The translations under genes were made by a program, and so were the position numbers. From Puniceicoccaceae bacterium (GTDB lineage Bacteria > Verrucomicrobiota > Verrucomicrobiia > Opitutales > Oceanipulchritudinaceae), in the NCBI GenBank assembly GCA_040830765.1, contig JBFOMH010000019.1, positions 143,224 through 207,223 of the forward strand: a stretch of DNA of 64,000 nucleotides, read 5' to 3'. This document shows positions 26,001 through 47,000 of this stretch, one piece after another. The notes below the pieces were generated by a model. The model did no database searches, was not told the origin of the DNA, and saw only the letters and a program-made list of their open reading frames with translations. Position 1 is the stretch's first letter, and each line of letters begins with the position of its first letter.

Positions 26001-29000
26001 TGACCTCGGCAATGAAGCCATCACCGGAAGCACGAACAATAACAAGGCTGTCCCCTTCCACCATCGCGGTTAAGAAGTCCGGGCTTTCAGCAAGGGTGCT
26101 GCCATTGATCTCGTCAGCAAGGTTCTGGGCCACGTCTTCCAGGTTGTCACCCGCAATCACCGTGTAGGTGAATGACGTTGCCGAGCCTGTCTTGACCCCG
26201 AATGCATCAACATCCCAGATACTGACAGTCCACTCTTCGAAGGCCAGCGGTGTTCCGGTAAACTTGATCGAAGCTGCCGGCAACTGCGGATTGATGTCGC
26301 TGAGGTCGTCCGTGTTTTCCTCGGCGGGCAGGATCCGAACCTCGACACTGAAGCTGGAAGTGGCATTGGCGATAACGAGGGCATTGCCATTGGAGATGGC
26401 GTACAGGTCACCACCGGTTATCAACTCAGCAAAGACAGCGGCAACGGAGTCCCAATTATCAGCCACGACTTCCTCACCATCAACCAGGTAGGTCTCGCCG
26501 ATGGATACGCGGAAGAAGGAGCTGCCGTCGATGCGGACCGTCCACAGTTCACGCGGCTGGACGAAGTCAGTGAAGGTCACGGTGGCGGCACGCGAGGTCA
26601 GGCCATCCGTGGAGGCCGGAGCGCTGGCCCCGGAGTCGATGGACAATGTGGCGGACAAGTCAGCACCATCGCGATCGACAATGACCAGTTTGGCATCGCG
26701 GTAGCCAGCTGTGAGGGAAGCTGCGCCGGTCGAATTGATTTCAGCGGCAAGTTCCTCGGCGATGTCACTAAAGGTGTCGCCAGGCTGGATGACATAGGAG
26801 AAGTCAACCGGCGTACCGTCATCCAGGCTCAGGGCCAGGGTCCAGGTGTCGCCGTCGGTTGGCGTGCTCTGGAATTCGATGGAAAGGCTGGTCGGGGCCG
26901 GACTGGCGGGGACGGGTTCGTAGCCACTGATAGTGCCGATGGAGAATGACGGCGTAAAGGCTGCACCGGTCCGGTTGACGAGTATGAGGTCGTCGCCGTC
27001 AACCAGGGCGGTGTAGTTCTCAACGGCAACCCGTGCGTCGCTGTTGATAAGGGCGGCCAGTCCAGTTGCGGCTTCCGCAACCGAGGAGATTGTGGTTCCA
27101 TCAATTTCAACACTCCAGGAAAGGCTGCCAATGGATACGGTCCAGATTTCATCAACGACAACTGGTCCGGTGAGATCAATCTCGGCAGTGTAGGTTGAAT
27201 TATTGACCGTGTAGGCGCGGGCTGCGGTAACGGAAGATTCAACCACCAGTGGTTCACCAATTACGTTGACCACACCAAGCAGCACTCCCTCGCTGATTGC
27301 TACATAATCCCCGCCGGCGGTATTAATGGCGTTGGCCAGTTCGCTGGCGATATCGCTGAGGGAGTCGCCCTCAAGGACCGTGTAAGTGAAGGCTGCACCA
27401 ACGCCAGGCAGGGTTATGGACCAGATTTCATCGACAACAGCAACACCGGTGATTTCGACGGTGTTGGTAGTCGCTGTGGAGGCATCGATACCAACAATGG
27501 TTGCCGGCAGGACATCCACGTCGACGGAGAAGGCTGCCCCACCCGTCCGGAATACCTCGATCGTATCCCCAACGAGCGTTGCTGTGTAGGGGCCAGCGGT
27601 ATCGGCGTTGATCAAGTCCACAAGACCCGTGAGGATGTCCGTGAGACTGGTGCCTGCGGATTCAAAGGCGTAGGTCGAAGTCGTGGAACCGGAAGTAAGC
27701 TGGATGACCCACTGCTCGTCGGCAATCATGCCGGTCGCGGCGGTGAAGTCCACAGTGGCCTTGCTGGCTATGGTCTCACTGCGGAGGGCCGTTCCGGCAG
27801 CAACCGTCTCGAGGGCCAGCGTAAAGGCATCATCGGCCCGGTTGAGGATGTAGAGCTTGGAACCGTCATAAAGGGCGGTGAAGTTGGAGGCATCCGGATC
27901 GGTGGAATTGTTGAGTTCATAACCCAGCATCATCGCCACCTGCTCGGCGGTATCATCCGCATCCGCCGTGTAATCAACAAGGATGTGCTCACCGTTGATG
28001 CTGATATCGATCGAGAATACTTCCCCTTCGCGGACTGGCGTTCCGACATCGACTTGTGCGGATTGCATCGGCAGACCGGTGTCGGTGAGCGCGCCGGCCG
28101 GCAAGACGTCATAAGCAATACTGCTGACCCGGGTGGAGCGGTTGACGATGTAAATCATGTCACCTTCCGGCATGGCAGTAAATTCGGACTGACCTTGGGC
28201 ATTGATCGCGACTGCGAGGCCTGCAGCGACGGCAGCGAGGTCATCACCCGGCTGGACAGCATACTTCACCAGGATGGTGGTTTCGTTGGCACCCGTTCCA
28301 ATGGTCAGTTCGGCGGTCCAGATTTCTCCTTCAACGAGGGATGTTGCAGTGGAAAGCGTGTTGGAATTGGCCGTCGCGGCAACCGCTCCGGCTGTGATCG
28401 CGCCATCAAGACTTCCGGCCACCGGTGTAATGCTGAAGCTGGAGGTGAAAGCGGTATCCGTCCGGTTGACAATAACCAGGATGGAACCATCACCGAAGGC
28501 CGTGTAATCGGCGAGGGTTGCGTTGGCATTGATGAGGTCCGCCAGATTGTCGGCAATATTATCCCGTGTATCAACCAGCTCGACACGGTAACTGACAGTC
28601 GTTCCGTCGACAGTGGCCTTCCAGACTTCACCAGCCTTTGGCGTGCCGGAGAGGATGGCGGTGGCAACGGAGGTGATGGCCGTACCGGTCATGCTGCTCC
28701 ATGCGCTGGTCGAGGCGGTCAGCGGAACGAAGGCGGTTACGAGCGAGGAACCGTCCGGACCGGCAATGATAACCCGTGGTCCGGATTCGACTGCGGCAAA
28801 TCCATCAACAACGGTATTGATCTTGGCCGCGAGGATACGGGCGATGTTACCAAGCGAGCTGGCCACGACATCGGTTGTCCCGATAGTAAAGGTTTCGCCG
28901 ACGGTAACCTCGAAGATCAAATCGCCGCTACCGGCATTGTCATTGAGTGTCACTCTCCAGATGTCACCCGTCACGGCTGAGCCGGAGAGCTGAACCATGA

Positions 29001-32000
29001 AGGTGGCCGGATCATCGAGGGATTCCGTCAGGCTGGAGGCTGCCTCAACAGTAAGATCCGGGGCGGTGAACGCGGTTCCATCCCGCTTCACGACTACCAG
29101 GGAGGCGATCAGGGATGGGTCAGTGGAAAGGATCCTTGAAGAGGCACTGAAGTCGCCGAGACTGCCGTGGGTGCGGATTCCTTCAGCAAGGGCTTCAGCC
29201 ACGTCAGCCAGCGTTTCATCAACCCCAACTACATGGAAGACGTCCGTGCCGTTGACATTGATGGTCCAGGTCTCACCGACTTGGGCAGTTCCGTTGAGCA
29301 CGTAGGTGTAGGCGGTGACGTTGCCGTTCTGCGTCGTCGAGGCATTGTCGGCAGCGGCCGGGGAGACCACGATACTAGTCACGAAACTGTCAGCGGTACG
29401 CTTGACGATGTAAAGGGTGCCATCGGCAGTGACCGCATTGAATTCAGACAGGTTGCCATTGCCGTTGATCTGATCTGCGAACCATTGGGCGATTCCCGGG
29501 AAGGTGTTGGTGACACCATCAACGGTCAGTGAGAAGGGCTCTCCGGCAACGGTCAGGTCGAAGGTCTCGCCAACGACTATGTCGCCATCCACAAGGACAC
29601 CGTCCACCAGGGTCTTGCCGAAGGTCACGGTCGTGGTACGGGCGGTGACGGTATCGACATCACCATAACTGCCGATTTCAAAGGCGTTTCCAAGACGGTT
29701 GACGATTACCAGCAGGTTGCCATCGGCTGCTGCGGTGTAGTCGCCCAGCGAGCCATTGCTGTTGAGGAGGGCTGCCAGGCCAGCTGCGATGGCGCTCGAG
29801 CTCAGGGTGCCGCCGCTGGTGTTTTCAAATTCAATTTCCGTTCCCAGGCCATCCTCGACTATTACCAGGCTCCAGAATCCACCCGCCACAAGGTCATCGA
29901 CGATAGTCACGACAGCAGAGGAAGCGGAAGTGGTGTCAACGACCGCGCCGGATGCCGGTGTCACTGACAGGCTGAGATTGACGCTGCCACCACGCGTGTT
30001 GACAACGATGAGGAGGTCACCTTCCGCACTGGCAACGAGGTTTACGGAATCGTCCGTGGCGTCCGCATTAATGGCCTCGGCGAGGGCAGTCGCGACGTCG
30101 GAAAGGGTCGATGCAACCGTAATGCTATGGCTGACTTCGAGATTACCAATGGTCGCCGTCCAGGTTTCACCGATGGCCGGTTCACCGACAAGGGTAATGA
30201 TGCTCGTACGGCCAATCGTTGTTCCGATGGAACCGGAGTCCGCGTCGAAGCTGGCCGTAAAGGCACCATAGGTACGCTTGATGAGGACAATTGCATCACC
30301 ATCAGCAACAGCAGTGAAGTCGGCACCAAGGATATTGGAAATGGACTGTGCCAGCGAGGAGGCGATATCCTCGAGGGTGTCTCCCGCTTCGATGATGTGG
30401 GAGACACGGCGCACTTGGCCGTCGAAGTCGAGTTGGATGCCCCAGTCGTCACCGACCACCGGCGATCCGGTCAAAGTCATGACCGTGGAGGATGCGGTTC
30501 CGCTGATGCCGTCGTCCTGGTCGAGGGCGAAAGCGCCTGCGAGGGTGAAACGGTAACCGGCCTGATGGACAACAACCAACTGGGCGCCATCCGCGATAGC
30601 GGCATAATCGGCCGGGGCGAAAGCGTTGATGAGTGCTGCCAGGGTTTCGGCCAACTCGGCCCCGGACTGGGCGGAATCACCGGACTGCTGCACCACATGG
30701 GTAAGGACATGGGAGAGTCCATCACCAACAAGGGTAATCGTGATCAGCTGTCCGACAGGCAGGTCATCCGACAAGGTGGAGATACGGATAAACGGATCAA
30801 CACCGTCGGCAAGGACACCTGCCGGCAGGATGTTGATACCCGGCGTAAAGGCCACATTGTCGCGATTGAGGATGTAGAGCTTTTCTGCCACTGAGAGGGC
30901 ACTGTACTGGGCAAGGCCGTCCCCGTTGACCGTAATGGCCAGCTTGGCGACCACATCCTCGAGCGTTTCGAGTGTCTTCAGGGTATCCGGATTGTTATCG
31001 GCATCGACCAGCTGGACAATGTAGGAGACGAGACTGTCGAGATTGCCACCCTCAATTTCCAGGGCGAAGACTTCGCCCGCAACCGGAATGCCACTGAAGG
31101 TGCCGCGCTGGACTGCGCTTTCCATGGCGGTCATATCCGGGGCAAAATCACCTGTCCGGCTGCCAGCGACGGTTGTCACGGTAGCCTCGACGGAGAAGGC
31201 CAGGCCATCCTCATTGACGATGAGGAGATTCGACCCATCCGCGAGGGAGACAAAGCCGGCATCTGTTGCGTCGAAAGAGGTGTTGATATGGCGGGCCAGC
31301 TTGCGGGCAATGGCATTGCGGGTATCACCCGGGAGGACTGCGACCGCATGGGTGCTGACGGTCGAGCTGGAGCCATCGTCAACAAGCTCGATAAGCCAGA
31401 TTTCATCCACTGTCGGGGCCCCTTCAAAGAGTACCGAATAACCGGTCGCTGCCGTATCCAGTCCCCAGATAGTCGAGGTTTCAGTGAAGGGATCAAAGAC
31501 CGTGCTGGTCGTGAAAGTGGTGTCACTGTGGACGATGATGAGCTTGGCGCCTTCACTGGTGGCAAGATATGGAGCGGCAGCGTTGGCATTGATGTCGGCT
31601 GCCAGGATGGAAGCGATGACCTCAAGGGATTCCACTGTGTAGCTGAAGGTCGTGCCATCAACGACGACAGACCAGGTTTCCCCAATACGGGCCGTACCGG
31701 TAAATTCGACGCGGGTCACATTCGGGGAAGCGGTCCTCGGAATCATCTCACCATCGGTCTCGAGAATCGGCAGGATCTGCGAACCAGTGCTGAAGCCGGG
31801 GGCGACCTCGGTTTCGATAACCAGCACATTGCCCTGGACGCGGGCGGTGAAGTCACCGAGGACGGCGTTGATCTTCGCAGCCAGGCCACTTGCCACTTCC
31901 GCCAGCGGTACCGTCTCGCGGACAGTGTGGGAGTGGATTGATTCAACGTCCCCACCGAGGGCAGAGTCGTAGTAGCTCAGCTCGACGGTCCAGATGTCAC

Positions 32001-35000
32001 CGATGACCGGCGTACCGAAGAGGTCGATGGAACCGGTGTAGGCCGGATCCGGATCCGGGACAACAACGGTGTCGTTCGGTGAGATTTCGAAAGTGGTTGA
32101 ATTGGTATTGCCGGCAACATTGTTGATGACCAGGGCCACGCCAACCGAGAGGGCCGAGAGATTGCCAGCCGGATCAGCCTGGACCAGAAGGGCCAACTGC
32201 TCAGCGATGGTTTCGAGTGTGTCGTCCTCAACGATGGTGTAACTGAAGGTCTTGTCCTCGCCGTCAATGTCGAGGTTGAGGCTCCAGGTGTCCCCTACCC
32301 TGACATCGCCACTGAGGATGACCGTACTGGTGTCTTCGGAGGGCCATGGGGCATTGAAGGTGACATTGTAACCCGAGACGATCGGCTTGAAATTGGACGG
32401 AATCTCATCGAAGAGGCTGAAGGTAAGCAGATCCAGCGGGTCACCGGGTAGCATGGTCACGGTGACATCGGAAGGGCCGGAGGCATCGGTGAGAGTAAGT
32501 TTCCAAGCGCCAGCGAGGTCGGCGGCGTCGTCCGGATCATCGAGGAACTCAAAGGCGACGACGCCCCAGTCGATACCGAAGAGATAGGAGAAGTCCTGGA
32601 CGGGTGTTCCGCTGATGGAGTCACTGCCATTGCCACCGGAGCGGACAACTTCCACGCGGAACGGAACAACGGCATTGCTGTTGCCGGAGTCGACCACACT
32701 GATCCGCAACTTGGCGTTGCCCAGGATATCAACGAAGCCTTCAGCAGTGAAGACGTAGTCCTCGATACCGGTATCGTCATAATCGCCGGTATTCAGCTTT
32801 TCAGCCCATTCGCGGACAATCTTGGAGAGGGCCTTGTTGTCTTCGCCCACATCATAGACGATATCCAGATCGGACGTGGCATCGTCCCCGAAATTGAACA
32901 TGAGGGTCCATGTTTCCGTATTGGCTGCAAAGCCACCAAGACTGATTGTCGCCTCAAGCCACTCGATGGTGGTATCGCTATCGCTGTTTACATTCGCGAA
33001 ACCAACCAGATCCTGATCGGGTGTACCGCTAAAGAGGACATCATCGGATGTGACATTCCCAGTGCCCCTATCGAGATCAACCTTGAATGGCTCATCCCCG
33101 CCAATGGAAAGGATTTCCTGGGAGATGCCAAGGACGTCGAGGAACCGATCGAGGGCCGGGCCTTCAAGCCACGTAAACTCGAATGGGAATTCGTTCATCC
33201 GCGGATCGAATCCAGGACGCTCGCCGTAAATGTCATTGAAGTGGAATGACTCACGGTCGGTCATGACCGCATTGCCGTTGTTGTCGATGCTGATGCCGGT
33301 CACCGTTCCATCGGCCTGTGGATCATTGGTTTCCTCCGGCAGGCGGAATGGATCGTTGAGGAAGCGTTCCTCACCAACAAGGGCACCGCCGACAATGCTG
33401 AGCGGACCACGGATGCCGTTAACCCGTTCCTCGAAGGCCGGGAAGACAAGGGCATCACTGCCATCAATCACGTTGTCGTCGATAGCCTGTATCCAGACTG
33501 TGCGGACAACATCCCAACCGTAGTCGGTGGCATCGGCATCCCCAGCGGGAACGAAGCGCAGTTGCGGAATGATGGCAGCATCACCAACCGGTGCGACAAT
33601 GTTCGTCGGGCCAGTGCTGGCGCTACTATTCAGGCCTTCGAGTCCCACGAGGACGCGTGCATCGATGTCCTTGTTCTGGGATTCGGTGGCATTGCTGATG
33701 GTGATGCTTCGGCCTTCGACGAGGACGTCGTACTGGCTCAGGTCAAGCTGGTTGGCCAGCATCATGGCAATGGTGGAAAGGGTATCACCGAACTTGGTTG
33801 TGTATTCAACGCCGGTGCCCCATGCGGCATTCGGATTGGAACTGATGTCGCGCAGTTGCAGGGTCCAGATTTCGCCAGCAGTAACATCTCCCTTGAGGGC
33901 CACCTCGACCGATTCGAAGAAGCTGGTAGTCGGGGTTTGGGAGATGCGGTTGACTTCCACCTCGCCCCATCCAAGGGCCCGGCGACGGTAGTCGGAATCA
34001 CTGCCTGTGTCGACATCGACACCAATCTCAAAGGCGGTAAAGAATGGCGTGTAGTCAGCCTCGTTATCCGTCGTGATGAGGATTTGTGGCGTTTCCCGCA
34101 TGGAAATACCGGCGGAAGCCCATGTTGTTCCACTACCCTTATCCATGACTGCCGAGAAGATGACTGTCTGGTCAGGATCGAGGACAAGGATGGTCTCGCC
34201 ATCAGCAACCGCCTTATAGCCGGCCGCTGTGTTACCGTTGATCAGGCTGGCCAGCCCAAGCGCCACATCAGACAGGGTATCGGTGGCCGTGGGCTCATAG
34301 GTAAAGACCGTGTCGCTGCCATCATTGAGGGTCAGGCGCCAGAAGGTGCCCTGGTCAACCGAACCGGAGAGGACAAGGGTCATGCCCGGATCAAGGTCCG
34401 CGGTGTAATCAATGCCCACAGAGGTGTTCAAGATGGTGATCTGGCCCGCAATCGAAGCGGCAACTTCTGTTAGCGTCTGTGGCGTGGTGGCATTGATGAA
34501 GAGACCGACGACGTCGCTCTTGGTGGCATGCAAGGCTGCGAACTCGTCCGAATTAATTCCGCCATCGGAAAGCTTTTCATAGACCATGTCACGGAAGGCA
34601 TCGACGCTGATGGTGCTCTCCGGACCAGTCAGGGTCATGAACCACACCTGGCCTCCTGCCGGTGTGCCATCGAACTGGACAAGGGTGCGGTCTGTGGCAA
34701 TACGGACTTGCTCGGCAAGGTTTTCGCCAAATGCCTCATCCGCATTGAAGGCCTCATCCGCATTATAGGTCCGGGTTTCAACCGGCAGGATATTGACGAT
34801 TACCTCATCCGTCGGGTTCTTCGTAAGGACGATATCCCAGGTATCGCTGATAAGGTCGCCATCGTCATTGAGGAAGCTTGAATACGGCAGTGGCAGGGTT
34901 TCCTCGGAAATCCGGTAGGTGATGTCGTACTTGCTGTCGAAGAGCGGGACTTCACTCCAGTTGTCAAAGCCGGATGTCGAGACATAGAAGGCTTGGCTGG

Positions 35001-38000
35001 TCGGATCGTAGTCGATGATTGTACCGGCCTGCCCGGCGGCCTGCCCTTCTACAACCTGGATACCTCGTCCGGTCAGCTCGATGGCGGCAAGATTCGTCGG
35101 GTGACCCGGGATGGAAATGATCAACTCGTAATCGAGTCCCGGATAGATGCCGGCATACTGGTATTGCGGGTAGAACTTGTCGTAGGTGACGACGGAGGAT
35201 ACCCGGATGAGGAACGGTTGTGCCGTGGTCGGCGCTGGAATCAGGTACTCGAGGAAGGGATCATATGGGCTGTTGCTTCCCTCGTCGACCGGGACAGAGG
35301 AATCCGGGACATACTTGGAGGAAGCCAGAATCGAGCCGCTGGTCGGATTGATCAACTCAATGACCGGGCTAATGGTGTAGTTGACCGTTTCGAGAATCGG
35401 CACCGTCTTGTAGACCGGGATGAATCCGAAGAGGTAGTAATCGACGACTTCCTCGTAACCGGTCACGACCTGGAAGCTGCCCTTGACCAGTTTGGTGTTG
35501 TCGATATCGAAAACGGCAAAGACATCGCCACCCCGTTCGGCGCGGAAGGCAAATGGGTTGAGGCCATGACCACCACCGGGCTTGGTCAGGTCCGGCGCAC
35601 CGGATGAGCCGTCCTGGTCCTCGATGGTGATGGAAGTATCGGTGGCACTGGCCTTGTAAAGTCCGAGTGCATCCACGACCTTGGCCAGTTCGTCCGCCAC
35701 CGTCTTGAAATTGAGTTCACCGAGCTGTGTTCCCTCCTTGAGGCCGCCCGGGACTTCCCAGAAGTATTCCACGTTATTGAGGAAGACCGAGAAGACCTGA
35801 CCGGCGGAGACATCGCGCAGACCAGCATCCCCTTGCAGGTCGAAGGTGACCGAGAAGAAGTGTGGATCGCCGTCTCCGGGCCACGTTACAGCCGTGGTAA
35901 AGTCTTCTGCACCATTGGAGCTGTCCGGATCGACGAAGGCATGGACGCGGACCCATCTCAGGTCACCGAGTTCGACCAGGTTACCGTCGGAGCGAACGAC
36001 CTTTACGGAGCCGTCGGCCTGGGCGGTTGCCGAAAGCACACCGCTGAGCCCGGTCGATGCATCATCAAGGGCCGAATCGAGGAAGGCCTTGACGGCATCC
36101 GCGATACTGGTGGAAGCGCCGCTGGTGGTGCCAACGGTAAAGGACGGATCCGGGGTTTCCCCGTTGTAGGACAGGATAAAGGTGTCACCTGCGTAGAGTG
36201 GTGTGGCATACCCGGCCACATCCGGATGGATGATCATTTCCCAAGGCAGCTTGACCGTACCGGAAAGCGTGGCGCTGGCAGAGACATCGACCGGATCGAC
36301 AAGCGGTGAAGTGACGGTAAATGAGCCTGGGCCGAAGATGAAGAAGGAAGTACTGGTGAGGGAAACCGTGGAGTAATCACCCGTTACCAGGGCCTTAAGG
36401 CTGGTTGTCACGGAGGAAAGGCTTGGATTGGTGCCACTGACACCACTCTTCAGCGGGACAGGATAGCTCGGGTCCGTGCCGGAGCTCAGGTCAAGGCTCC
36501 AGGTCTGGCCTTCATAGACGACTCCACCTAGTTCAACGAGATAGGCACGGACACTGGTACCCGACTTGACATTGGTGTCTGTCGTACCGTTCAGATCCTC
36601 AGTGAGGGTTGCCGTGAAGGCGGCCAGGCCGGAGTCGCGCCAGATCGTTAGAATCTTGCTTGATGAGTTGTAATCAGCCGAGTAGATGGTGCCATCGATT
36701 GCGGTTTCCAGGGCGCCTGCCTTGGCATCGACTCCGGTGAGACTGTTGGAGGTAATGTTGATATTACCGATGCCGGTCAGGGCCAGTATCCAGTCGTCGT
36801 TATTGTCTGCCTCAAGGCCACTGCTGAGGTTCAATGTCACATAGGCCGTGCCAGTAGCGTCCAGTGTACCCCCTATCGGCTGGGCATCGACCTCCAGGTA
36901 CTGGAAGCCGCGGTTGCCGGTCCAGGTAGACTTGAAGACAAAGGTGATCTTGCCGTTAGAGGAAGCCGTGACCGAGGTGAATGGATCGCTCGGACCGCTG
37001 AGAATATTAAACTTGTTGGCAAGGTCCTCGGCCACGCCGATAACTTCATCGGGCAGTCCGGAATTGATGGTATTGAGCTGCGTCAACAGGCCGACATTAC
37101 TGGTCTTTTCAATGTTGGCCACCTTGAGTCTCCAGTCCTCTCCCTGATGCGGCGCGCCCCCAAGGTCGACAGTCAGGGTGGTCCAATTGATTGCGGTATA
37201 GGTCGCGCCAACTGGCAGGGAACCGGTCTGACCGGCAGGGGTGCCGGAGATCTTGGCACTGCCATCCGGATTGATGCCGGTTGTGGTAATGGAGACCGAG
37301 ACACCGGCAGCAGCCACCGCATTGAAGGTCACCTTGTCGGCTGATCCGCCAACACTGGAAATGATGCCACTAAAGGCGGCTGCTCCAAGGGCGGTGCGGA
37401 TGCCTGCCGCAACCTGATCGGGAGATGTGTAACCAGTAAGGATGCTTGCTCCGGTAGGTGTGGAGGTTGAGTTGATGGTTACCACCCATGTATCGGCGGC
37501 ATCGATACCAGAGCCATCAATGTCAATCTCGACATTGCCAAAGAGGATATCGGAGCTTCCAGCGGCATTCTTGGCGGTTGTTGTCCGGCTGACCGTTCCC
37601 GCATTATTCACGGTATGGACAAGCCCGTCGACACTGCCGGCCTCACCACGACCCTTAAGGACAAATCCTCCGCCGAGGTTGCTCACGGTGAGCGTATTTG
37701 TGGTGGCATCGACCGAGTAGCCTTCGATGAATCCGTCGGTCTGGGCATCGAGGATTTCCTGGGCCAGCGCGGCGGCGACACCGGCTGCTGAGGAATTGGT
37801 GCCATCGACAGTGACGATGAAGTCGCGGTAACCCAGACCCAGCTGATAAGTGTCGCCCACCTCGACCTTGTCGGTCAACTGGAAGGTAACCGTGCTGTAA
37901 TACTGGGAACCATCGGAGCTGCCGGATGCTCCTTCGACCTCGTCCGGATTGGCATCCACGTGGAACTTGTAGATGTCGTAGGACCAGTCACCGGTACCGA

Positions 38001-41000
38001 CCACCTTGACATACGGTGTGGTGTAGTCGATTCCCGGACGATCACCCGGCTCGCCAGCGAGGTGGATGTTGCCCACGGCAGGATCGTAGAAAGTGAAGAA
38101 GCTCGAACCGTCGGAACCATCGCCATCCAGTTCCTGCCCGGTGGAGGAATCAATGGCGCCGCTCTGGTTGTTACCGAATTCATCTTCGAGCACCGGCTCG
38201 GGAGCGAAGATAAAGGAATCCTCGGCATGCTGTTCAATGGAGAAGTGCAGTTCGTAGTCGACCCCTTCCGGGACCCCGTCGATACCGACAGGCCAGGCTG
38301 CCGTGACCTCAACGTAGTACGTACCCGGTGTCTCAATGAAGTAGGACAACTGGCTGTCATAGAAGTAGCTGCTACCCGGATCCAGCGTCCAGCTGAACCA
38401 GGAACCTTCCTCGAGGAGGGTCGGCGTGCGGGGCTGATCCGGATCCAGTGGATCGACCAGTTCGTACAGCTTGAGCTGGCTGGCCCAGAACTGGGAATCG
38501 CCGATATCGAATCCGTGGTCGATGTCGAAGAAGACTTCCAAGCCCTTGTATCCAACGGTGCTACCGCTGTTCTCGGACTTGTAGGCCTCCACCGATGCCT
38601 CGTACATTTCCTCGGTGACCTCGAAGGAATAGAAGTCCGCATTGCCGTCACCCGTGCCAAGAATGGTAGTGTGCGGCAGGAGATTGGACTTGTAGATATT
38701 GGCCACGAAAGTGGTATTCCACTTGGAGGTATCGATATCCTGCGGGATGAAGACAGAGTCATGAACCTCTTCCTGTTCCTCGCCGATGGAGGTGCCGAAG
38801 TCGCCCACAAAAATGACCGCATAGGTGCTGCCATCGGAAACCAGCTCGACCTTGATGAAGATACTGAAGGTCTCGCCGCCACCGGTCTTGTCGACTTCAA
38901 TGTATTCGCCGGAAGATGTGGCCGTGTAATCGGTCAAGGCATCAATTTGTCCCGCAAGGGCACTCGCAATTGCGGTAAAGGAGGTGCCGATGATGGGTGT
39001 TGCTGTGCTGACAGAGGTACCCGTTTCATCAACGAGGTGGGCCGTCCAGCGCATGTTCGTGGTCGGTTGCTCAGGCTGGATTCCGTCGAGGGTCGCATTG
39101 GTATCTTCCGGAGAGAGACCGAGGCGGAAGCGGGCGAGGTCAGTCTGGGTCGGGAAGCCATTGCCAAGGAGGACCAACTCCGTCGGCTCGATGACATCGG
39201 TTGACTCGAGGGACTGGATAACGAGTACGCCCGGAGCGTCGTTGTCGGCAACAATGACGTCGATGGAGTTTGGTACGGTGACTTCACGGTTTTCACCAAC
39301 CACATACTTGTACTCGACGGTGTTGAGGTCTTCGCCCGCCGTCACGGAAACATCGCTCTGGGCATCGACCTCGGCCTCAGCAGGCAGGGTGATGACAAGA
39401 TCCAGCGTGAAGGCTCCAAAGCGCTCGACCTGGATGCTGGCCGTGTCGTCGTCCAGTTCGGTAGTCCCGCCATCGTTATAGGTAACGGAGGCTGAGTAAC
39501 CGGTGAAGGCGTCAATCTGGGTTTCCAGATCGTCAACGATGTCCTGCAAGGTCTCATCCTCACCGACGGTATAGCTGGCCTGCACACCCCAACCCATCGC
39601 AGTGAGGTCGATGGTGTACGTTTCGCCTTCTTCCGGTGCGCCGTTGAGGCTGACCGATTGGACATCCGGGCTGGCGCCGAGGATGAGCGTCCAGGCCGAC
39701 CCCTCGGCATAGGCGAAGGTATCATTGGTGAAGTCGACGTGGGTCAGCTGGTAAACAAGCTTGGCGTAGTGGGTCGGGCTTTCGAGGGACTCACCCGTGC
39801 TGTGGGCCTTGGCGCTGCCTCCGGAATCCGTAACATCGACTTGGGAAGCAGACTCGGCCAGCAGGACATCCAAGCTGAATGGCGTGCCATCGGTGGTGAA
39901 GATGACCACGGATTCGCCAGTTGTGCTTCCATCTATCTCAGCACTGCTCTGGACGGTGCTACCGGTCACGGAGATGCGGATTGAGAAGTAATCCGTGCCC
40001 TTGTTGACCGTAAATTCAGTACCCGTCGGATCGGTTGCGGTAAAGTCGGTCAACTCGTCAATCTTGTCGGACAACTGGGTTGCGATGTGACTCAAGTTGT
40101 TGCCGCTTTCCACGGTGTAGGAAACCTCGATGCTGTTGTCCAAGGTCACGGTCCAGACATCTCCCTTGAGCGGGGTGCCCTTCAATTCGACATCAGCGGT
40201 GGTGAACTTGGTGGCAAAGCGGGTTCCACTGAGGTTGATGACGTTGCTCAGCCCATTGGCAACATCCTGCAGGGTCTCTGCGGAGGCCGTTGTGCCCTGG
40301 CGGGTGTAGCGGAATTCCGTGTCATCGAGGGTGACAATCCAGACCGAGCCGGTAACATCATCAACGGCTGTGTCATCAAGGGTGACATCCGCCACGTTCC
40401 AGGCCTTGACGCTGTCGGCCGTGACGATCTGGAAGCCGAGGGCAGTCTCGCCACTGAAGGTGGCCCGGCCCTCGGACTCACCAGAGGCGTAGAAATTGAC
40501 CTTGAGGAACTTGTTGTTGGAACTGGAAAGTTCGATCGATGTGCCGTCCAATGAGGCGTCGACACCATCCTGCCCGTCAATCTTGCCGACCAGGGCGGAG
40601 GCGATCGTGGCGAGTGTATCATCAACATCAACTGTATGGAAGAAGGCCCGGCCATTGATCGTAACAACCCAGGTTTCCCCTTCTGCCGGTGTGCCGGCAA
40701 GGTCAATATCGACAGCCGTAAACGGTGTCAGCAGGTTGCCCTGGAAGGCAGGACCAGTGATTTCCACCGTATCCGTTCCGGAATCACCTTCATAATCGGT
40801 GTCGATGTTGCCATCGATGATATTGGCGATGCCGTCGACGACGTTGTTCTTTGTCACGCCGAGGAAGAACTCCATGTCGCTCTCGGATATGCGGTGATTA
40901 ATCCGGGCGTAGTGTGTCCCCTCCTTGGCGTTGTCATTGACGGCACGGACAACCACTTCCTTGGGCTGATCCCAATCCGTCTGGTCGAAGGTCACGGTCA

Positions 41001-44000
41001 CGGCACCTTGTACCGGAACGCCGTCGACCTCGGTGATGGTCTGGGTATCACCGTCAATTTCCGTAATGAGGACATTGCTGTTCGGAGTGAGGGTGATTTC
41101 GACCTGACCGGTCGGCCGCTTGGTCAGGACAATCCAGTAATTATCAGACTGGAGGAATCCCGGTGCATCTGGATCAGAGCCGGCTGCGACGGTGAATTCC
41201 CAATCGCCGCCTTCCCCGACGATCGGGGAGAAGATGCTTGCCGAGTCCACACTGGTACCATCGTGACCGGCAATGAGGACGGCTGCCGAATCGTCATCGA
41301 CCACAGTGGCCACGACCCCAAGGATGGCCAATCCGTCATAGGCGCCACCATCAGCGGCACTGGCTCCCTGCTGGGTGCGGTGGACAATGGTGTACCCGTT
41401 GGTTCCCTCGGCCAAGTTATCAGCCGGGGCAAAGACAAAGACTTCCTGCGGAACGAACCAGTCCTGGCGGGTAAAGGTCAGGGTGAGGCCGTTCTCGTCC
41501 GGTGTGCCCGAGTCGCTGGTGGACAGGCCAACGCCCTTTCCACCTGCGGCGAGGACACTTTCACGGATGGCCACCGGAGCAGCGGTGACAAGGACCGTTT
41601 CTTCGGGTGAACGGGTCAGGACGACCTGGTAGGACTGGACTACCAGTGCGACTCCGCCACTTTCAAAGACCCGGATCGGGCCCATGGTCGAAAGGACCAC
41701 TACATCCGCTTCATCGTTATCGCGCACATCAGCCGAGACATCCCGGACAAAGACGTTCTTGTATTCCGGATCGTCAGTGGTTGTGGTCTGGATGACAAGG
41801 CCGCTGTGCCCCTCGAGATTGTTACTGACGACGGTAACCTCGCGGCCGCCACTGCCACCGATGCTGAAGTTGTCGCTACCCAGCCCGCCAACAACTTCGA
41901 GGGAAACTTCCTCGCTGGTACTCTCGATGAAGAAGCGGTCATTCCCCTCGATGGCGTCGACGACGATGCGCTCAAGCCCGCTGTAGGTAACAAACAGACC
42001 GGCCCCGTAGACTCCCTGTTCGTTAATGACAAAGTCATCACCAAACTCAGTGCCAATCACGGTCAAAGTATCGAATCCGTCACCACCCTCAATCCGGACC
42101 GGGGCATTCACGGTAAAGGAAATGAAGTCAGCACCCTGGCCGCCGTTGATGTTGGTGAACGGTGCCTTGGGATCGTTCGGATCGACCTTGACGAAGGCCC
42201 GGACGGTAAAGGTGTCATCATCCTCATCCCCAAAGAGGAAGAGCTCGGCCTTGTTGCTGTAGACCGTAAAGTTGTCATTGCCGGTGCCGCCGAAGAGGGT
42301 CGAGCTGAAGCTGATACCATTGGACAGGAAGCCGCGGGTAATCTGGGTGGTCTCGAAGTAGTCTTCCTCGGCGAGGCCATTATCAGGATTGTTGCCATCC
42401 CGGAAGGATTCGAAGACCTGTCCGATCTGGAAGGTGTCGTTACCGGCATCACCGAAGACCGTGACCGGGGCCAGGTTGTCATCAAGGACGAAGACGTCAT
42501 CGGCATCCCGGCCAAAGACTTCGACCGCACCATTGATGTCGTAGTCGTAGTTGATGCGTTCGATGACACCACCGGGGACCGGTTCGCGGTTTTCATCAAC
42601 CTCGATAGCGGCAACCATACCCTGGCCAATCTCCTTGTTGGCCCGGAAGAGGAAGTAGTCGACTTCGTTGGTGCCGTAGATGCGCAGGCGGTCGATGCCC
42701 GGATCGCCGCGGGACTCGTCGAAGACATTGATACGGGAGGAAATGCGCCCAGCGAGGCCGATTTCGTATTTGTCACTGCCCTGCTGGCCATGGAGGGTCA
42801 GTTCGCCGTCGATACCGCTTTCAAAGGTCTGCTTGCCACTGCGGTCGTAGTTGACCCGAATGATGTCGTTCCCGTTACCGGCACTGACAGTAGTCGTACC
42901 GGAAATGCTACGGATGTTCACGACATCGTTAACGCCATTGATAACCGGTGATTCATCGCCCATGTCGATGGTGGTGACACCGGTGTGGGTTGAATCGAGG
43001 AAGAAGGCGTTGTCATTGTCGCTGAGCCAGATGCGCAGGAGTTCGAAGCTGGTGTAGTTGACTCCCAGGGTCATGCCCATGCCGAGGATTTCGTCACGGG
43101 TCAGCTCGCCTGCCTCACGCTCGGTATCACCGGCATCGTAAATCTTCAGGGTATCGGCGGTCCCTTCCCCACCCTCGATGGTCAGGCGTCCAAGGATAGC
43201 ATTGACGTTGCCGTCGAGGGCATCGATCAGGGTACTGGTCTGGCCGAGTTGTCCGGCTGTGCTACCGACACGGACAGTGTCATTACCATCACCGGTGGAG
43301 AGGTTGAGATTCCCGTCGACGCTTTCGATATTGATGATGTCATCACCACCGAGACTGGTCAGGTTCGTGATCGAGTTACCCGCGTGGGTGCTCTCCACGG
43401 TGAAGTAGTTCCCGACACCATCAAGATGGATGTTGAGCACTTCCAGCGTGCTGTAGGTGACGCCGCCGTTCGGGCCGAAGAGCAGATTGCTGGTACCGGC
43501 CACGTTGTTGCGCAAGGTCGTGGCGGTAAGGGTACCATGATTGATCGGAATCAGGTCAGTATCCCCGGAGTCGTCAAAGGAGACGATGTCCTCGTCAAAA
43601 CTGCCTTGGCCGTTGATGGTCATCGGTGCCCTGATATTGTCGAGAACACCCCGGACAAAACCATCGGCTGACGGATCATCGACACCATCAACCGTTGCCG
43701 TACTGCCGACGTTGACAATGTCACTGCCCGCACCGGTGTTCAGGATGGTGTTGGTATGGATAGCCTGGACAGCGATCCGGTCGTCACCGCCCCGGGTATC
43801 AATTTCCACATTTTCAACACCCGTATGCGTGATGAGCATCGAGGAGACAGTACTGGCTTCAATCTGGCCCTTGGTGTCCAGAACCGGCACTGTCAGGGTC
43901 ATCCAGTCGGCAGAGTCGGTACCGGTTACGACGAGGCGGTCACTGCTGTCAGAGACGGTACTGTCGATGTGGACCTGGGCGACACTGTCGAGCGGCATGG

Positions 44001-47000
44001 TGAGGAGATAGTGCTCCGGATTGCCACTGCTGTTGCCCTGATTGTCGAGGTGGGCTTCGCCGCGCCAGTTGACCACTGAAAGTGTTGTTCCGGCGACGCG
44101 GATGGAACGGTCGAGGTCGTTGACGACGATGGTATTGTTGCCACCCATGCCATTGATCCAGGCAATCTCGAACTGACTGGCGATGTCCTCGACAATGGTT
44201 CCTGAGGCCCAGCGATCGCCTGGGTCGAAGAGCTCGCTGGCAGCGTTCTTGCCAACCGCAAACTGACCGGACCCGGCGCTGTTTTGCAGGGTGCCGACTA
44301 CCAGTTTGTCATCGAAGAGACCGATATCGGAATCGAACTGCTCAACGAGGATATCCGCGGAACCGGAGGAATCGATGAGGATGTCCTTCGAGAGTCCGCC
44401 AGTGACGGTGTCGTTACCGGCACCGGAATCAATAAAGTCTTCAAACTGCGAGCCGATGATGCGGTCGTCATTATCGCCACCAAAGAGGCGCAGGGCAGCG
44501 TAATTTGTCGTCAGGCCGGCGATGACTGGATCAGCGAAGATCAGGTCGTTGCCTTCTGCGGTATCGACGTTGACTGTATCGCCCTCGGCCCGGACCGAGT
44601 CAGATATGACGATCCTGTAGAGTTCGCTTCCAGCAGCGTTGGGCATGAAGAGCGGCGACCCGTCGATTGTGTAACTGTCATAGAAGGTCAGGCTCATGCC
44701 CGGGTAGTTATCCCAGTCGCTGTCGCTGATCCTGATGTAGTCTGCAAGGGCGTTACCGTTGATGGTGATGGTGTCGGCAACCTGGTCCGGGCTGACATTG
44801 ACAACGGGTTGTTCGACCAGTTGACCATTGACTTCAACAAGCTCGATACCGCCCTCGGTAACAATCTTGCCGGCACTGATGTTGACCAGGTCGAGGCCGG
44901 AACCGTTGAGGTGATTCACGGTGAAGGTATCGGCAGCACCACGGCCCTCGATGACCAGGGATTCAAAGCCCTTGCCAATAATGGAACCTTCAGGTGTGCC
45001 GCCCTGGACATTGACCAGCTTGAACTTGTCGCCGAGGAGGGAGGAGAGTTCAAAATTGTCCTCGGTCTTGATGCCGTAGACGCGAAGTTCATCCCCAACC
45101 GTGTCGGGCAGGGACTGGCCGTCTGATCCACCTTCAATCTTGACCAGCTCAAGGGCGACATAATCCCAGTGGATGACATCATTACCGGCATCACCATAGA
45201 TTTCATCGATGCCGCCGCGGCCGTCGATTTCATCATCACCAGTGCCACCGCGGATAACATCGTTACCGGCTCCACCAAAGATGATGTCGTTTCCGGCTCC
45301 GCCGTCGATGGTGGCGCTGCCCGTTCCGTCGAAGACGATGTAGTCAAAGCCACTTCCACCAAAGATGGTGGCATTGATACTGGTCGGGGCCGTGTAGAAG
45401 TAATCGTCACCAGCATCACCGTAGAGAACGGCGGAACCCTTGCCTTCGTAGATGACGACATCATTGCCGCCACCGCCGTGGAACTCGATATCCGAGACAA
45501 CATCCGGTCCGATGTAGATGTGGTCATCGCCCGGACCTGCGTAGGCAACGATCTTCTTGACCCCGCGGAACTGGGTTTCACGGCCACTGAAGAGAACCTT
45601 GATGGTTTCCCCGGTTTCGTCACCGCCAACATGCTCGATCTTGTACAGTTCGGCCCCTTCGCCTTCACCGATACCACGGATGGTATTGCGATCACCCATG
45701 TTGAGATAGAGGACCCCATTGGCCGCCACCGGATCCCAGACCCGGAAGTCACCAGTCGGATTACCGGCAAGGTAGACCTTACGCGGCAGCTCGATGTAGC
45801 CAAGGGTGAAGCTCATGCTGACCGAGACGGAGAAGAAGAGGAATTCAACTTCTGCACTGGCCCGGACAATGATCGGCACGCGGCCTTCGCCTGAAGCAGT
45901 GACGCTGGCGGAAATGGTTACCCCGGCAAAGGTGATGCCGAAGGCCCGCAGCTTGGCCCCACCGGAGAATTCGACGAGGAAGAAGAATTCGGTCAGGCCC
46001 GGGGTGCCGATGACTTCGCGTTCACCAAAGGCGACCCGGAAGTGGAAGCTGGCCTTGAGCCCGAAGCTGTCCGTACCGAGGGTCAGGCCACCATCAAGGG
46101 ATATGTCGAAGTGGCCCTTGTAGTTGAACATGCCATAGGCGGAAAGCGTGACCAGGCCGAAGAAGTCCATGCTGGCATTGAACTCGACGCGCCATGAGCC
46201 AGCCCCTTCATATCCGACCTCAAGGATGAATCCGGCATCGAACTTGAGAACCTCGAGGAAGGAAACGGAGCCATTGAGGGCAATGAGGAAACTGTTGGGA
46301 GCCATCGTGATGCCGACGAGTGTCCTCGAGGCGCCGGTGGTGTTGAGCTGCAGCTTGCCGGAGGCTTTAATCTTGATGACTTCGAATATATTGACGTCCA
46401 GGCTGACATCGAGGAGGAGCGCCAGTCCGGGATTGGAATCCGTGTAGATGGCCGCCCCACCCTTTGCCGAGACGGTTATCGGACCCAGTTCGATATCAAT
46501 TTCAAATTCGATGGAGAAGACGTTGGCCTGCATCGTAATGATGATGCTTCCGGAGGCCGAGGCCAGTCCGAGGAAGGTCACCGAGCCACGCATACCCAGC
46601 TTGAAGCCTGCCTTGACGACAACTGTTTCCCCGTCCGCGGTGGTCAGGGTCTTCTCCTGCAGACCGCCGATGTAAAGTTCTAATGTTGCTTCAACGCTGA
46701 AGCTGAGCCCGATATCGCCACCGAAGCCGGCACCGATCGAGAGGTCCACGTAGGCGGCGAATCCGTCGCCATCGACCTGGAAGACCGCATCGATATCGAA
46801 TTCACCGATACCAAACAGCTTCATCGTCGCGGAAGCGCGAATCTCAATGCTGAATGGATCCGGGCGGAAGACGAATTCAAAGCGGCCCTCAATATCAATG
46901 ACCGGACCCAGGCGCAGGTGACCCTGCAGGACCAGGCGGAGACCGGACTGGATGGTCACATCCCCGAAGAGGAAGAAACCGGTATCCGGGTCGGTGGCCA

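What the first reader, a model, noticed from the sequence alone, without database searches (positions are those of the whole stretch)
33460..41150. Multi-level nesting: IN modules inside a PPC domain inside Calx-beta-like domains
Seen: PPC copy 2 starts PYVKVVGTGDWSYDIYKF (37957-38016) and resumes VFDIDN...DPFLEY...YELIISIPGH at 35100-35525, with ~7 modules between, while copy 1 is contiguous. Both PPC copies sit between DNDAPGVLV..DVIE (~39190) and DTWDIVLTKNP (~34845), which are close together in the intact Calx-like copy. That domain is split again before LRFVP...WDVVRTVWIQAIDD (33460-33566).
Basis: partly seen in the sequence, partly recalled or inferred. Interest (0 to 1): 0.75.

Follow-up and report, generated by a model that had tools for sequence, protein, structure and literature searches.

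The report
Nested split domains in giant protein
Inside a bacterial surface-type protein of more than 18,600 residues, one small beta-sandwich domain is interrupted by two collagenase-type binding domains, and the second of these is itself interrupted by a chain of seven small repeat modules; the same layout recurs in giant proteins of several phyla and extends a budding principle already known from large bacterial adhesins.

Summary
The region lies in one minus-strand ORF (8014..63999, at least 18,661 aa, cut at its 5' end by the contig end).

- **Split host domain.** A profile of 42 uninterrupted copies of the host beta-sandwich finds three colinear, non-overlapping pieces in the region.
- **PPC copies.** PPC copy 1 is contiguous. 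Its model matches clostridial collagen-binding (PPC-type) domains at Z 11.9.
- **PPC copy 2.** It is split after its second strand by 795 aa holding seven modules. A model of the uncut 1036-aa stretch brings the two halves together into a PPC-type sandwich (Z 7.5-8.2).
- **Homologues.** 14 of 14 homologues with both halves carry 680-1506 aa at that point. The other insertion sites vary in steps of about 100 aa, down to zero.
- **Label not supported.** Sequence tests gave no support for "Calx-beta-like", and the fold was not modelled.
- **Precedent.** Split domains that bud other domains, including three-level nests, are published for RTX adhesins. This is a new variant of a known kind.

What is new is a multi-module array inside a PPC loop and an unannotated module family. 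Function is inferred, not shown.

The parts
8014..63999 (-). Giant ORF, at least 18,661 aa. Its 5' end is cut by the contig end. RTX nonapeptide repeats lie near the C-terminus.
41296..41751 (-). Uninterrupted host-type beta-sandwich copy A (aa 7417-7568)
   Evidence: hmm 1-142 of 142, iE 1.9e-43; alignment
40837..41322 (-). Uninterrupted host-type copy B (aa 7560-7721). It has a roughly 35-aa loop at the position of the large insertion in copy C.
   Evidence: hmm 3-137, iE 4.9e-27
39442..40728 (-). Site 0: four HMM-detected IN modules between copy B and split copy C (aa 7758-8186)
   Evidence: The B-to-C gap is 520 aa here and -10/-11 aa in 8 of 27 homologue rows.
39175..39267 (-). Split copy C, piece 1 (aa 8245-8275, SIDVIVADNDAPGVLV...DVIEPTEL)
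   Evidence: hmm 4-34, iE 3.5e-5
38872..39069 (-). Site 1: one IN module (aa 8311-8376) between piece 1 and PPC1
38125..38802 (-). PPC copy 1, contiguous (aa 8400-8625), with a helix and loop between strands 2 and 3
37942..38046 (-). PPC copy 2, N-terminal half (aa 8652-8686), holding the two strands YVKVVGT and DIYKFHV
35557..37941 (-). Site 2: array of seven IN modules inside PPC copy 2 (aa 8687-9481, 795 aa)
35065..35556 (-). PPC copy 2, C-terminal half (aa 9482-9645), starting near VFAVFDIDN
34723..35061 (-). Conserved roughly 70-aa return segment, then split copy C piece 2 (core aa 9715-9745, DTWDIVLTKNPTDEVIVNILP)
   Evidence: (hmm 38 to about 65, iE 2.3e-5)
33679..34695 (-). Site 3: three HMM-detected IN modules inside split copy C (aa 9769-10107)
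33454..33519 (-). Split copy C, piece 3 (aa 10161-10182, GWDVVRTVWIQAIDDNVIDGSD)
   Evidence: hmm 90-111, iE 8.5e-3; alignment with 12 homologues

Best explanation
The region encodes a three-level nested split-domain unit of a giant secreted or surface protein that carries RTX repeats.

Architecture. A small beta-sandwich (copy C of a domain that occurs twice uninterrupted just upstream) lays down its first strands. The chain then leaves to build one IN module, a complete PPC/collagen-binding-type jelly roll (PPC1) and the first two strands of a second one (PPC2). It leaves again, in the strand 2-3 loop of PPC2, to build seven IN modules of about 100 aa each. It returns to finish PPC2, returns to the host sandwich, leaves once more for three or four IN modules, and finally completes the host. 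The IN module is an unannotated beta-alpha-beta unit with 64 HMM-detected copies in this protein. Because a single copy fits into roughly 100-aa loop gaps, its two ends are probably close together.

Proposed function (inferred, not shown). As in the split domains of RTX adhesins, the host sandwich would project the two PPC-type domains, as candidate calcium-dependent ligand binders, sideways from the protein axis. PPC2 would clasp both ends of a module array that forms a further projecting arm. That array is the one IN site occupied in every homologue examined, so it is probably integral to the unit's function. The other sites are optional spacers that grow and shrink in one-module steps.
For: - One ORF without stops and no DNA repeats.
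- Colinear, complementary HMM pieces for PPC2 and for the host domain, above 200 shuffles.
- PPC1 model: pLDDT 87.8. It matches ColG/ColH collagen-binding domains with Foldseek E 5.5e-5 and Z 11.2-11.9.
- Model of the uncut aa 8630-9665: mean pLDDT 71.7, pTM 0.48, seven helix-bearing units. The N-terminal strands have pLDDT 83-87 and the C-terminal half 66-89.
- In the search of 48,161 chains, 34 of the 50 rows shown span model residues from <=37 to >=1000. They include Tk-SP C-domain (Z 8.1-8.2, 102-105 aligned), ColH collagen-binding domain (Z 7.8, 99 of 117 aligned, chain 863-979) and B. anthracis PPC (Z 7.5, 90 of 105 aligned). These are the same neighbours as for PPC1.
- Homologues: both PPC2 halves were located in 14 homologues, and all 14 carry 680-1506 aa between them.
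- Site 1 gaps fall into classes of 11-20 aa (19 homologues), 95-142 aa (15) and 205-227 aa (4).
- Site 3 gaps are 15-30 aa in 3 of 11 homologues and 101-375 aa in the other 8; a twelfth homologue (P0065) has about 31 aa.
- Site 0 gaps run from -10 to 519 aa.
- PPC1 relatives include 6 multi-PPC proteins with PF04151. In 5 of the 6 the Pfam stretch lies inside a full-length match of my PPC1 HMM; in the sixth it overlaps a PPC2C-HMM match.
- Precedent: passages of PMC12077191 and of bioRxiv 10.1101/2025.09.30.679566 describe split domains that project ligand-binding domains, and nests of beta-roll > vWFA > insert or CBM.
Against: - No coordinates could be inspected, so contact between the PPC2 halves is inferred from alignment ranges, which give only the first and last aligned residue. 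pTM is 0.48.
- The PPC2 structural matches have Z 7.5-8.2, a range the tool calls middling.
- No homologue with an uninterrupted PPC2 was found, so 'insertion' there rests on likeness to PPC1 and other PPC domains.
- That piece 1 belongs to the same fold as pieces 2 and 3 rests on sequence profiles only.
- Pfam and NCBIfam name none of the parts in the window.
- Ligand binding is pure analogy.
- The protein departs from the RTX-adhesin pattern. No Ig-like extender array was seen. No HlyD-family type I secretion protein scored over its cut-off in the 97%-complete genome (best 55.7 bits against 208.65). The N-terminus is missing.
- The domain was not found in 40 related genomes with this query.
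Confidence: 0.72

Rival explanations
1. Same nested architecture, different purpose. The nests are a hierarchical reserve of hidden length rather than a ligand-presenting device. Everything placed in a loop is shielded from tension along the main chain until the clasping domain unfolds. The host sandwich would shield about 1,900 aa and PPC2 would shield about 800 aa. Each would release its length in steps, like a mechanical fuse.
For: - The PPC2-clasped array is present in 14 of 14 homologues and is always long, 680-1506 aa.
- Arrays at the other sites vary freely, as expected for length elements.
- The modules resemble structural outer domains of flagellins and phage tails, not binding domains.
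Against: - There are no mechanical data.
- PPC1 is a well-conserved, complete collagen-binding-type domain with no array inside it, which this reading does not need.
- The published precedent for split domains is ligand presentation.
Confidence: 0.15
2. The halves are not parts of single folds. The short N-terminal pieces (aa 8652-8686 and 8245-8275) would be degenerate remnants or linkers. The C-terminal pieces would be truncated domains that fold alone. The modules would then simply lie between domains.
For: - The short pieces score low: 3.7 bits for PPC2N and 2.1 bits for host piece 3.
- IN modules also occur between domains, at site 0.
- No uninterrupted PPC2 exists among the homologues.
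Against: - The HMM coordinates of the pieces are complementary and colinear.
- Iterated profiles of the PPC2 halves recover the matching parts of PPC1 at iE 6e-15 and 4e-24.
- The pieces are conserved in order across homologues named by their sources from four phyla.
- The AF2 model gives the N-terminal hairpin pLDDT 83-87 and aligns it, together with the C-terminal half, to whole PPC domains.
- Host pieces 2 and 3 are contiguous in 4 homologues.
Confidence: 0.08
3. Artefact: misassembly of a repetitive gene, a frame error, or chance similarity.
For: - The genome is a 40-contig draft and the gene runs off a contig end.
- Giant repetitive genes are often misassembled, as a passage of 10.1101/2025.09.30.679566 says.
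Against: - There are no stops in 18,661 codons.
- There are no direct or tandem DNA repeats in 33000-42000.
- Modules are only 26% identical at the median and 49% at most, so there is nothing to collapse.
- The order of parts is the same in independent assemblies from other phyla.
- The shuffle control is clean.
Confidence: 0.02

Closest known systems
Split domains of RTX adhesins (AhLap of Aeromonas hydrophila, FrhA of Vibrio cholerae; PMC12077191 and PMC10865825; bioRxiv 10.1101/2025.09.30.679566)
   Same: A beta-sandwich in a giant protein with RTX repeats lays down its first strand or strands, lets other domains bud out, then completes its fold. Nests of three levels are described there (beta-roll > vWFA > insert or CBM). 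I read passages of the first and third papers. The second was seen only in the search listing.
   Different: - The budded units here are two PPC/collagen-binding-type domains.
- The innermost insert is an array of 7 modules (680-1506 aa in homologues), not a single domain or short insert.
- The host domain is split twice.
- The repeat unit of the protein is not an Ig-like extender.
- A retention module could not be tested, and no type I secretion partner over its cut-off was found.
PPC / collagen-binding domains of clostridial collagenases ColG and ColH (PF04151; PDB 1nqd, 4hpk, 5iku, 3jqw) and the PPC domain of B. anthracis collagenase (5sv5)
   Same: Same jelly-roll fold. PPC1 gives Z 11.2-11.9, rmsd 2.1-2.7 A, with 108-114 residues aligned and 18-25% identity. 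The split PPC2 gives Z 7.5-7.8.
   Different: - Pfam's model does not score on the window copies.
- PPC1 carries an extra helix and loop between strands 2 and 3.
- PPC2 carries 795 aa at that point.
- Collagen binding is not implied.
Outer or insertion domains of flagellins, phage tail sheath and nozzle proteins, the crAss001 auxiliary capsid protein, and GbpA/CbpD middle modules
   Same: Single IN units of the model align with these at Z 7.1-9.7, rmsd 2.2-3.5 A, with 80-114 residues aligned. The Atlas feature search also listed a crAss_AuxCP cluster (rank 18, score 0.91).
   Different: - There is no sequence-family match.
- The Z values are in the range the tool calls middling.
- Here the units form arrays of up to 25 copies.
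Flagellin domain organisation (D0 > D1 > D2 > D3 hairpin nesting; recalled, from no call)
   Same: Successive domains are each inserted within the previous one.
   Different: Flagellin nests one domain per level. Here a level holds two domains plus module arrays.

Membership tests
PPC / bacterial pre-peptidase C-terminal domain (PF04151, includes collagenase collagen-binding domains) | Scores on the Pfam model | tested here: not met
   no PF04151 hit at E<=10 on PPC1, PPC2N or PPC2C. The only hit on PPC1 was PKD, at E 0.013 and below its cut-off.
PPC / bacterial pre-peptidase C-terminal domain (PF04151, includes collagenase collagen-binding domains) | Jelly-roll fold superposable on solved PPC or collagen-binding domains over the whole domain | tested here: met
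   PPC1: Z 11.9 to 5iku, 11.7 to 1nqd, 11.2 to 3jqw and 8.3 to 5sv5; Foldseek E 5.5e-5. PPC2 with its array: Z 7.8 to 3jqw, 7.6 to 5iku and 7.5 to 5sv5.
PPC / bacterial pre-peptidase C-terminal domain (PF04151, includes collagenase collagen-binding domains) | Sequence relatives that themselves carry PF04151 at the matched place | tested here: met
   6 multi-PPC proteins are among the hits. The Pfam stretch lies inside my full-length PPC1-HMM match in 5 of them and overlaps a PPC2C-HMM match in the sixth. A PDB profile search hit ColG collagen-binding domains at E 0.022.
Calx-beta (PF03160) | Scores on the Pfam model, or profile similarity to true Calx-beta copies | tested here: not met
   0 families on aa 7420-7720; no Calx-beta on 4 long homologues (P0006, P0025, P0027, P0043); hhalign probability 0.3% against 4 Calx-beta copies. 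Atlas rank-3 cluster with 19% PF03160 (a lead only).
Calx-beta (PF03160) | Calx-beta fold | not tested
A PDB sequence-profile search gave only a complement C3 MG-type domain at E 0.017.
RTX adhesin with a split-domain ligand-binding region | C-terminal RTX beta-roll | tested here: met
   HemolysinCabind at 144.4 bits, 9 stretches, in aa 16001-18661.
RTX adhesin with a split-domain ligand-binding region | Split domain from which other domains project | tested here: met
   (sequence profiles, homologues, model).
RTX adhesin with a split-domain ligand-binding region | N-terminal retention module | not testable with these tools
   The ORF is cut at the contig end.
RTX adhesin with a split-domain ligand-binding region | Tandem array of Ig-like extender domains before the ligand-binding region | tested here: not met
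   No Ig-like family was found in any chunk of the protein. The tandem unit is the IN module, and its large arrays lie after the split unit.
RTX adhesin with a split-domain ligand-binding region | Type I secretion partner (HlyD-family adaptor) | tested here: inconclusive
   best match in the own genome is 55.7 bits against a cut-off of 208.65, and none is on the gene's contig. The genome is 96.9% complete, and only one family was searched.
LysM (PF01476), for the IN module | Full-length match to the LysM model | tested here: not met
   summed scores of 37 and 59.1 bits come only from many partial matches to model positions 1-14 and 1-17. No single stretch passes.

The most novel reading that the evidence does not exclude
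These proteins form an undescribed class. A conserved core of about 3,700 aa (as in homologue P0043) is inflated to more than 18,000 aa by arrays of one insertion-competent module at seven or more fixed sites, at least three of them loops inside folded domains. One array, clasped at both ends by a PPC domain, is obligatory. It forms a closed loop of roughly 6-14 domains that would be the working organ of the unit. That would be the largest regular intradomain insertion known, and a new way for giant proteins to grow.
Probability: 0.35. Interest if true: 0.75.

Novelty: new variant of a known kind. Interest (0 to 1): 0.55.

Why it matters
- **Annotation.** It gives a parsable architecture to part of a protein that Pfam and NCBIfam leave almost blank, and to relatives that their sources call hypothetical. 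Those relatives come from Chloroflexota, Thermodesulfobacteriota, Betaproteobacteria and Verrucomicrobiota.
- **Reach of the split-domain rule.** The budding rule worked out for RTX adhesins of pathogens appears to reach into environmental giant proteins.
- **Fold tolerance.** A 120-residue sandwich appears to tolerate 680-1506 residues of folded modules in one loop. This makes a natural test case for folding, domain insertion and protein design.

Tried and rejected
- **Complex prediction.** The three host-domain pieces were sent as separate chains. Score 0.00; the verdict was no answer, the controls were not run, and it is not used either way.
- **The search for related loci, single PPC1.** 36 pattern matches, none a relative.
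- **Related genomes.** PPC1 was not found in 40 related genomes: 0 of 12 in the same genus and 0 of 24 in the same family.
- **Family libraries.** Pfam on 4,500-aa chunks and on eight short pieces and NCBIfam name neither the PPC domain, the host domain nor the module.
- **PDB sequence searches with single sequences.** Nothing below E 0.4.
- **Alignment A3.** It misaligned host piece 3.
- **Alignment A4.** It misaligned host piece 2. Each alignment was used only where I had checked it.
- ** table.** Rows for multi-PPC proteases and similar proteins (P0008, P0017, P0039, P0055, P0060, P0085, P0125) showed 'gaps' of 25-436 aa between neighbouring complete PPC domains. I dropped them from the insert counts as a different family.
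- **Truncated homologues.** Four (P0016, P0047, P0052, P0059) have 917-1067 aa after PPC2N with no PPC2C found. They may be truncated before it or may lack it.
- **Literature.** A search for 'nested domain', 'domain insertion', 'giant protein' gave nothing relevant.
- **Earlier notes of this scan.** By place and by sequence: nothing.

Full report
**Setting.**
The finding lies inside a single minus-strand ORF, 8014..63999, with 18,661 codons and no stop. The contig ends at the window's last base, so the 5' end of the gene is missing. In 4,500-aa chunks Pfam recognises only RTX nonapeptide repeats (144.4 bits near the C-terminus, 34 bits near aa 6,225) and many partial LysM-like matches. A second large ORF (2..7786, at least 2,595 aa, no Pfam family) follows on the same strand.

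**The observation.**
I defined three sequence families within the protein and among homologues.

**1. The IN module.**
An 81-column HMM, iterated within the protein, finds 64 copies between aa 7758 and 16197. Median pairwise identity is 26% and the maximum is 49%.

**2. The PPC-like domain.**
A search of 1.84 billion representatives with aa 8400-8625 gave 239 proteins at E<=1e-3 and 25 at E<=1e-30. An HMM of 50 contiguous homologue domains plus the window copy matches three places in the giant protein, in colinear order:

| Place (aa) | HMM positions | Score |
|---|---|---|
| 8400-8625 | 1-198 of 202 | iE 2e-74 |
| 8660-8683 | 40-63 | 3.7 bits |
| 9526-9636 | 95-173 | 21.4 bits |

Profiles iterated from the two PPC2 halves recover the matching parts of PPC1 at iE 6e-15 and 4e-24.

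**3. The host domain.**
An HMM built only from 42 uninterrupted copies in 26 proteins matches the two intact copies (aa 7417-7568 and 7560-7721). It then matches three pieces that are colinear and non-overlapping in model coordinates:

| Place (aa) | HMM positions | iE |
|---|---|---|
| 8245-8275 | 4-34 | 3.5e-5 |
| 9715 to about 9745 | 38 to about 65 | 2.3e-5 |
| 10161-10182 | 90-111 | 8.5e-3 |

**Controls.**
In 200 locally shuffled copies of the whole protein, the PPC HMM never reached 3.7 bits and the host HMM never reached 9.9 bits. The host HMM reached 2.1 bits once. No direct or tandem DNA repeat exists in 33000-42000.

**Fold evidence.**
- PPC1, modelled with a 30-sequence alignment, has pLDDT 87.8.
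- It matches the collagen-binding domains of ColG and ColH at Foldseek E 5.5e-5 to 4e-4 and at Z 11.2-11.9, rmsd 2.1-2.7 A, with 108-114 residues aligned. That is about 3 Z units above the next family. The B. anthracis PPC domain scores Z 8.3.
- The uncut stretch aa 8630-9665 (1036 aa, 15-sequence alignment) gave mean pLDDT 71.7 and pTM 0.48.
- Its first two strands (YVKVVGT, DIYKFHV) have pLDDT 83-87, and seven units each carry one long helix.
- In the search against 48,161 representative chains, 34 of the 50 rows shown span model residues from <=37 to >=1000. They are the same neighbours as for PPC1: Tk-SP C-domain (Z 8.1-8.2), ColH collagen-binding domain (Z 7.8, 99 of 117 residues, chain 863-979), ColG (Z 7.6), the B. 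anthracis PPC domain (Z 7.5, 90 of 105), PliG and the DeCLIC N-domain.
- So the model closes the sandwich with the strands that lie 795 aa upstream. I could not inspect coordinates. The ranges give only the first and last aligned residues, and these Z values are middling by the tool's own note.
- The break falls after strand 2. At the same place PPC1 has an extra helix and loop (residues 64-87 of the model).
- The other 16 rows are single IN units. They align to phage sheath and nozzle domains, the crAss001 auxiliary capsid protein, flagellin and FliD outer domains and GbpA/CbpD modules, at Z 6.3-9.7.

**Homologues as a natural deletion series.**
The order piece 1 - PPC1 - PPC2N - array - PPC2C - return segment plus piece 2 - piece 3 recurs in the homologues. 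The tables give gap lengths at each insertion site.

| Site | Window | Homologues |
|---|---|---|
| Site 2, inside PPC2 | 795 aa | Both halves located in 14 homologues; all 14 carry 680-1506 aa (3-12 HMM-detected modules) |
| Site 1, piece 1 to PPC1 | 117 aa, one module | 11-20 aa in 19; 95-142 aa in 15; 205-227 aa in 4 |
| Site 3, piece 2 to piece 3 | 398 aa, three modules | 15-30 aa in 3 of 11 and 101-375 aa in the other 8; about 31 aa in P0065 |
| Site 0, copy B to copy C | 520 aa | Abutting (-10/-11 aa) in 8 of 27 rows; 93-519 aa in the rest |

- A single module in a gap of about 100 aa inside a sandwich loop implies that the module's ends lie close together. This is an inference.
- Rows for multi-PPC proteases were dropped as a different family. 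Four truncated homologues with 917-1067 aa after PPC2N show no PPC2C.

**Beyond the finding.**
- The compact homologue P0043 (3,733 aa, starts with M) maps colinearly onto the giant protein.
- P0043 residues 2502-2619, 2649-2848, 2850-3053 and 3059 onward match aa 10165-10284, 13006-13226, 15642-15867 and 16221 onward.
- The joints are 30, 2 and 6 aa long in P0043. In the window they hold about 2,720, 2,416 and 354 aa, with 25, 24 and 3 HMM-detected modules.
- In P0043 only the PPC2 site carries modules (884 aa). So the PPC2 array is the constant one and the others look optional.

**Labels.**
- 'PPC' is supported by fold and by relatives that carry PF04151. It is not supported by a direct Pfam hit.
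- 'Calx-beta-like' is not supported by Pfam, by hhalign (0.3%) or by a PDB profile search (best hit a complement C3 MG-type domain, E 0.017). An Atlas cluster with 19% PF03160 is the only lead. The fold was not modelled.

**Comparison with what is known.**
- Passages of PMC12077191 describe Ig-like split domains that project ligand-binding domains away from the adhesin axis. They also describe a nest in which an RTX beta-roll is split by a vWFA domain that is itself split by an insert.
[quoted passage not shown] They say that projections arise after the first strand or before the last two strands, and they give a beta-roll > vWFA > CBM-like example.
- The present unit follows the same principle: it leaves the host after the first strands. 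It differs in the budded domains, in the multi-module array inside a PPC loop, in the double split of the host, and in the module family.
- Membership among RTX adhesins proper is open. RTX repeats are present. No Ig-like extenders were seen. The N-terminus is missing. No HlyD-family protein scored over its cut-off in the genome.
- Homologues are called hypothetical by their sources and come from four phyla. PPC1 was not found in 40 related genomes.
It also reports an export protease-adaptor linked to giant proteins that bear an N-terminal tag. That cannot be tested here because the 5' end is missing.

**Verdict.**
- The nested architecture is real with high probability.
- Its role as a projecting, ligand-presenting unit is an inference by analogy. 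A hidden-length role is a live rival.
- It is a new variant of a known kind.

Noticed in passing
window 15409-32961 (aa 10347-16197): The long 'tail' of IN modules is really three arrays of 25, 24 and 3 HMM-detected modules. They are separated by core segments (aa 13006-13226 and 15642-15867) that are only 30, 2 and 6 aa apart in the compact homologue P0043. The giant protein therefore looks like a core of about 3.7 kaa inflated at fixed sites. Whether those core segments belong to one fold was not tested.
   Followed up: partly
window 2-7786, minus strand: A second large ORF (at least 2,595 aa, running off the window start) lies directly downstream of the giant gene on the same strand. Pfam finds no family at E<=0.001.
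   Followed up: partly
window 63999 / G000:C19 end: The contig ends at the window's last base, so the giant ORF lacks its start. Its first 35 residues recur almost exactly at aa 166-200, so the missing part probably continues a repeat. The first roughly 7,000 aa have no counterpart in P0043, apart from weak repeat-type matches at aa 6131-6937.
   Followed up: partly
IN modules throughout, e.g. window 14500-27999: Pfam LysM gives summed scores of 37 and 59.1 bits. These come only from many partial matches to its first 14-17 positions (the Y.V..GDTL..IA motif of the module), and no stretch is significant alone.
   Followed up: partly
window 34858-35061 (aa 9647-9714): A conserved segment of about 70 aa (IQVVEGQAAGQ...YDP...) sits between the end of PPC2 and piece 2 of the host domain in all 12 homologues aligned there. 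It has no counterpart in the intact host copies, and its role is unknown.
   Followed up: no
window 38700-38802 (aa 8400-8433): The N-terminal lead of PPC1 (family consensus E.E.HDS) aligns in the structure search with the N-terminal linker of the calcium-bound ColG collagen-binding domain (model 1..189 to chain 891..1008). From memory, that linker holds an E.E.ND calcium site. Conservation of a calcium site was not tested.
   Followed up: no
window 41750-42100 and 33100-33450 (flanks of the unit): The alignment consensus shows GG.G.D-type solenoid-like motifs conserved both upstream of copy A and downstream of piece 3. The three sandwich domains might therefore themselves bud from a split beta-roll, which would be a fourth level. 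Not tested.
   Followed up: no
own genome (G000): No HlyD-family type I secretion adaptor scores over its cut-off (best 55.7 against 208.65 bits) although the giant protein carries RTX repeats. The export route is open.
   Followed up: partly
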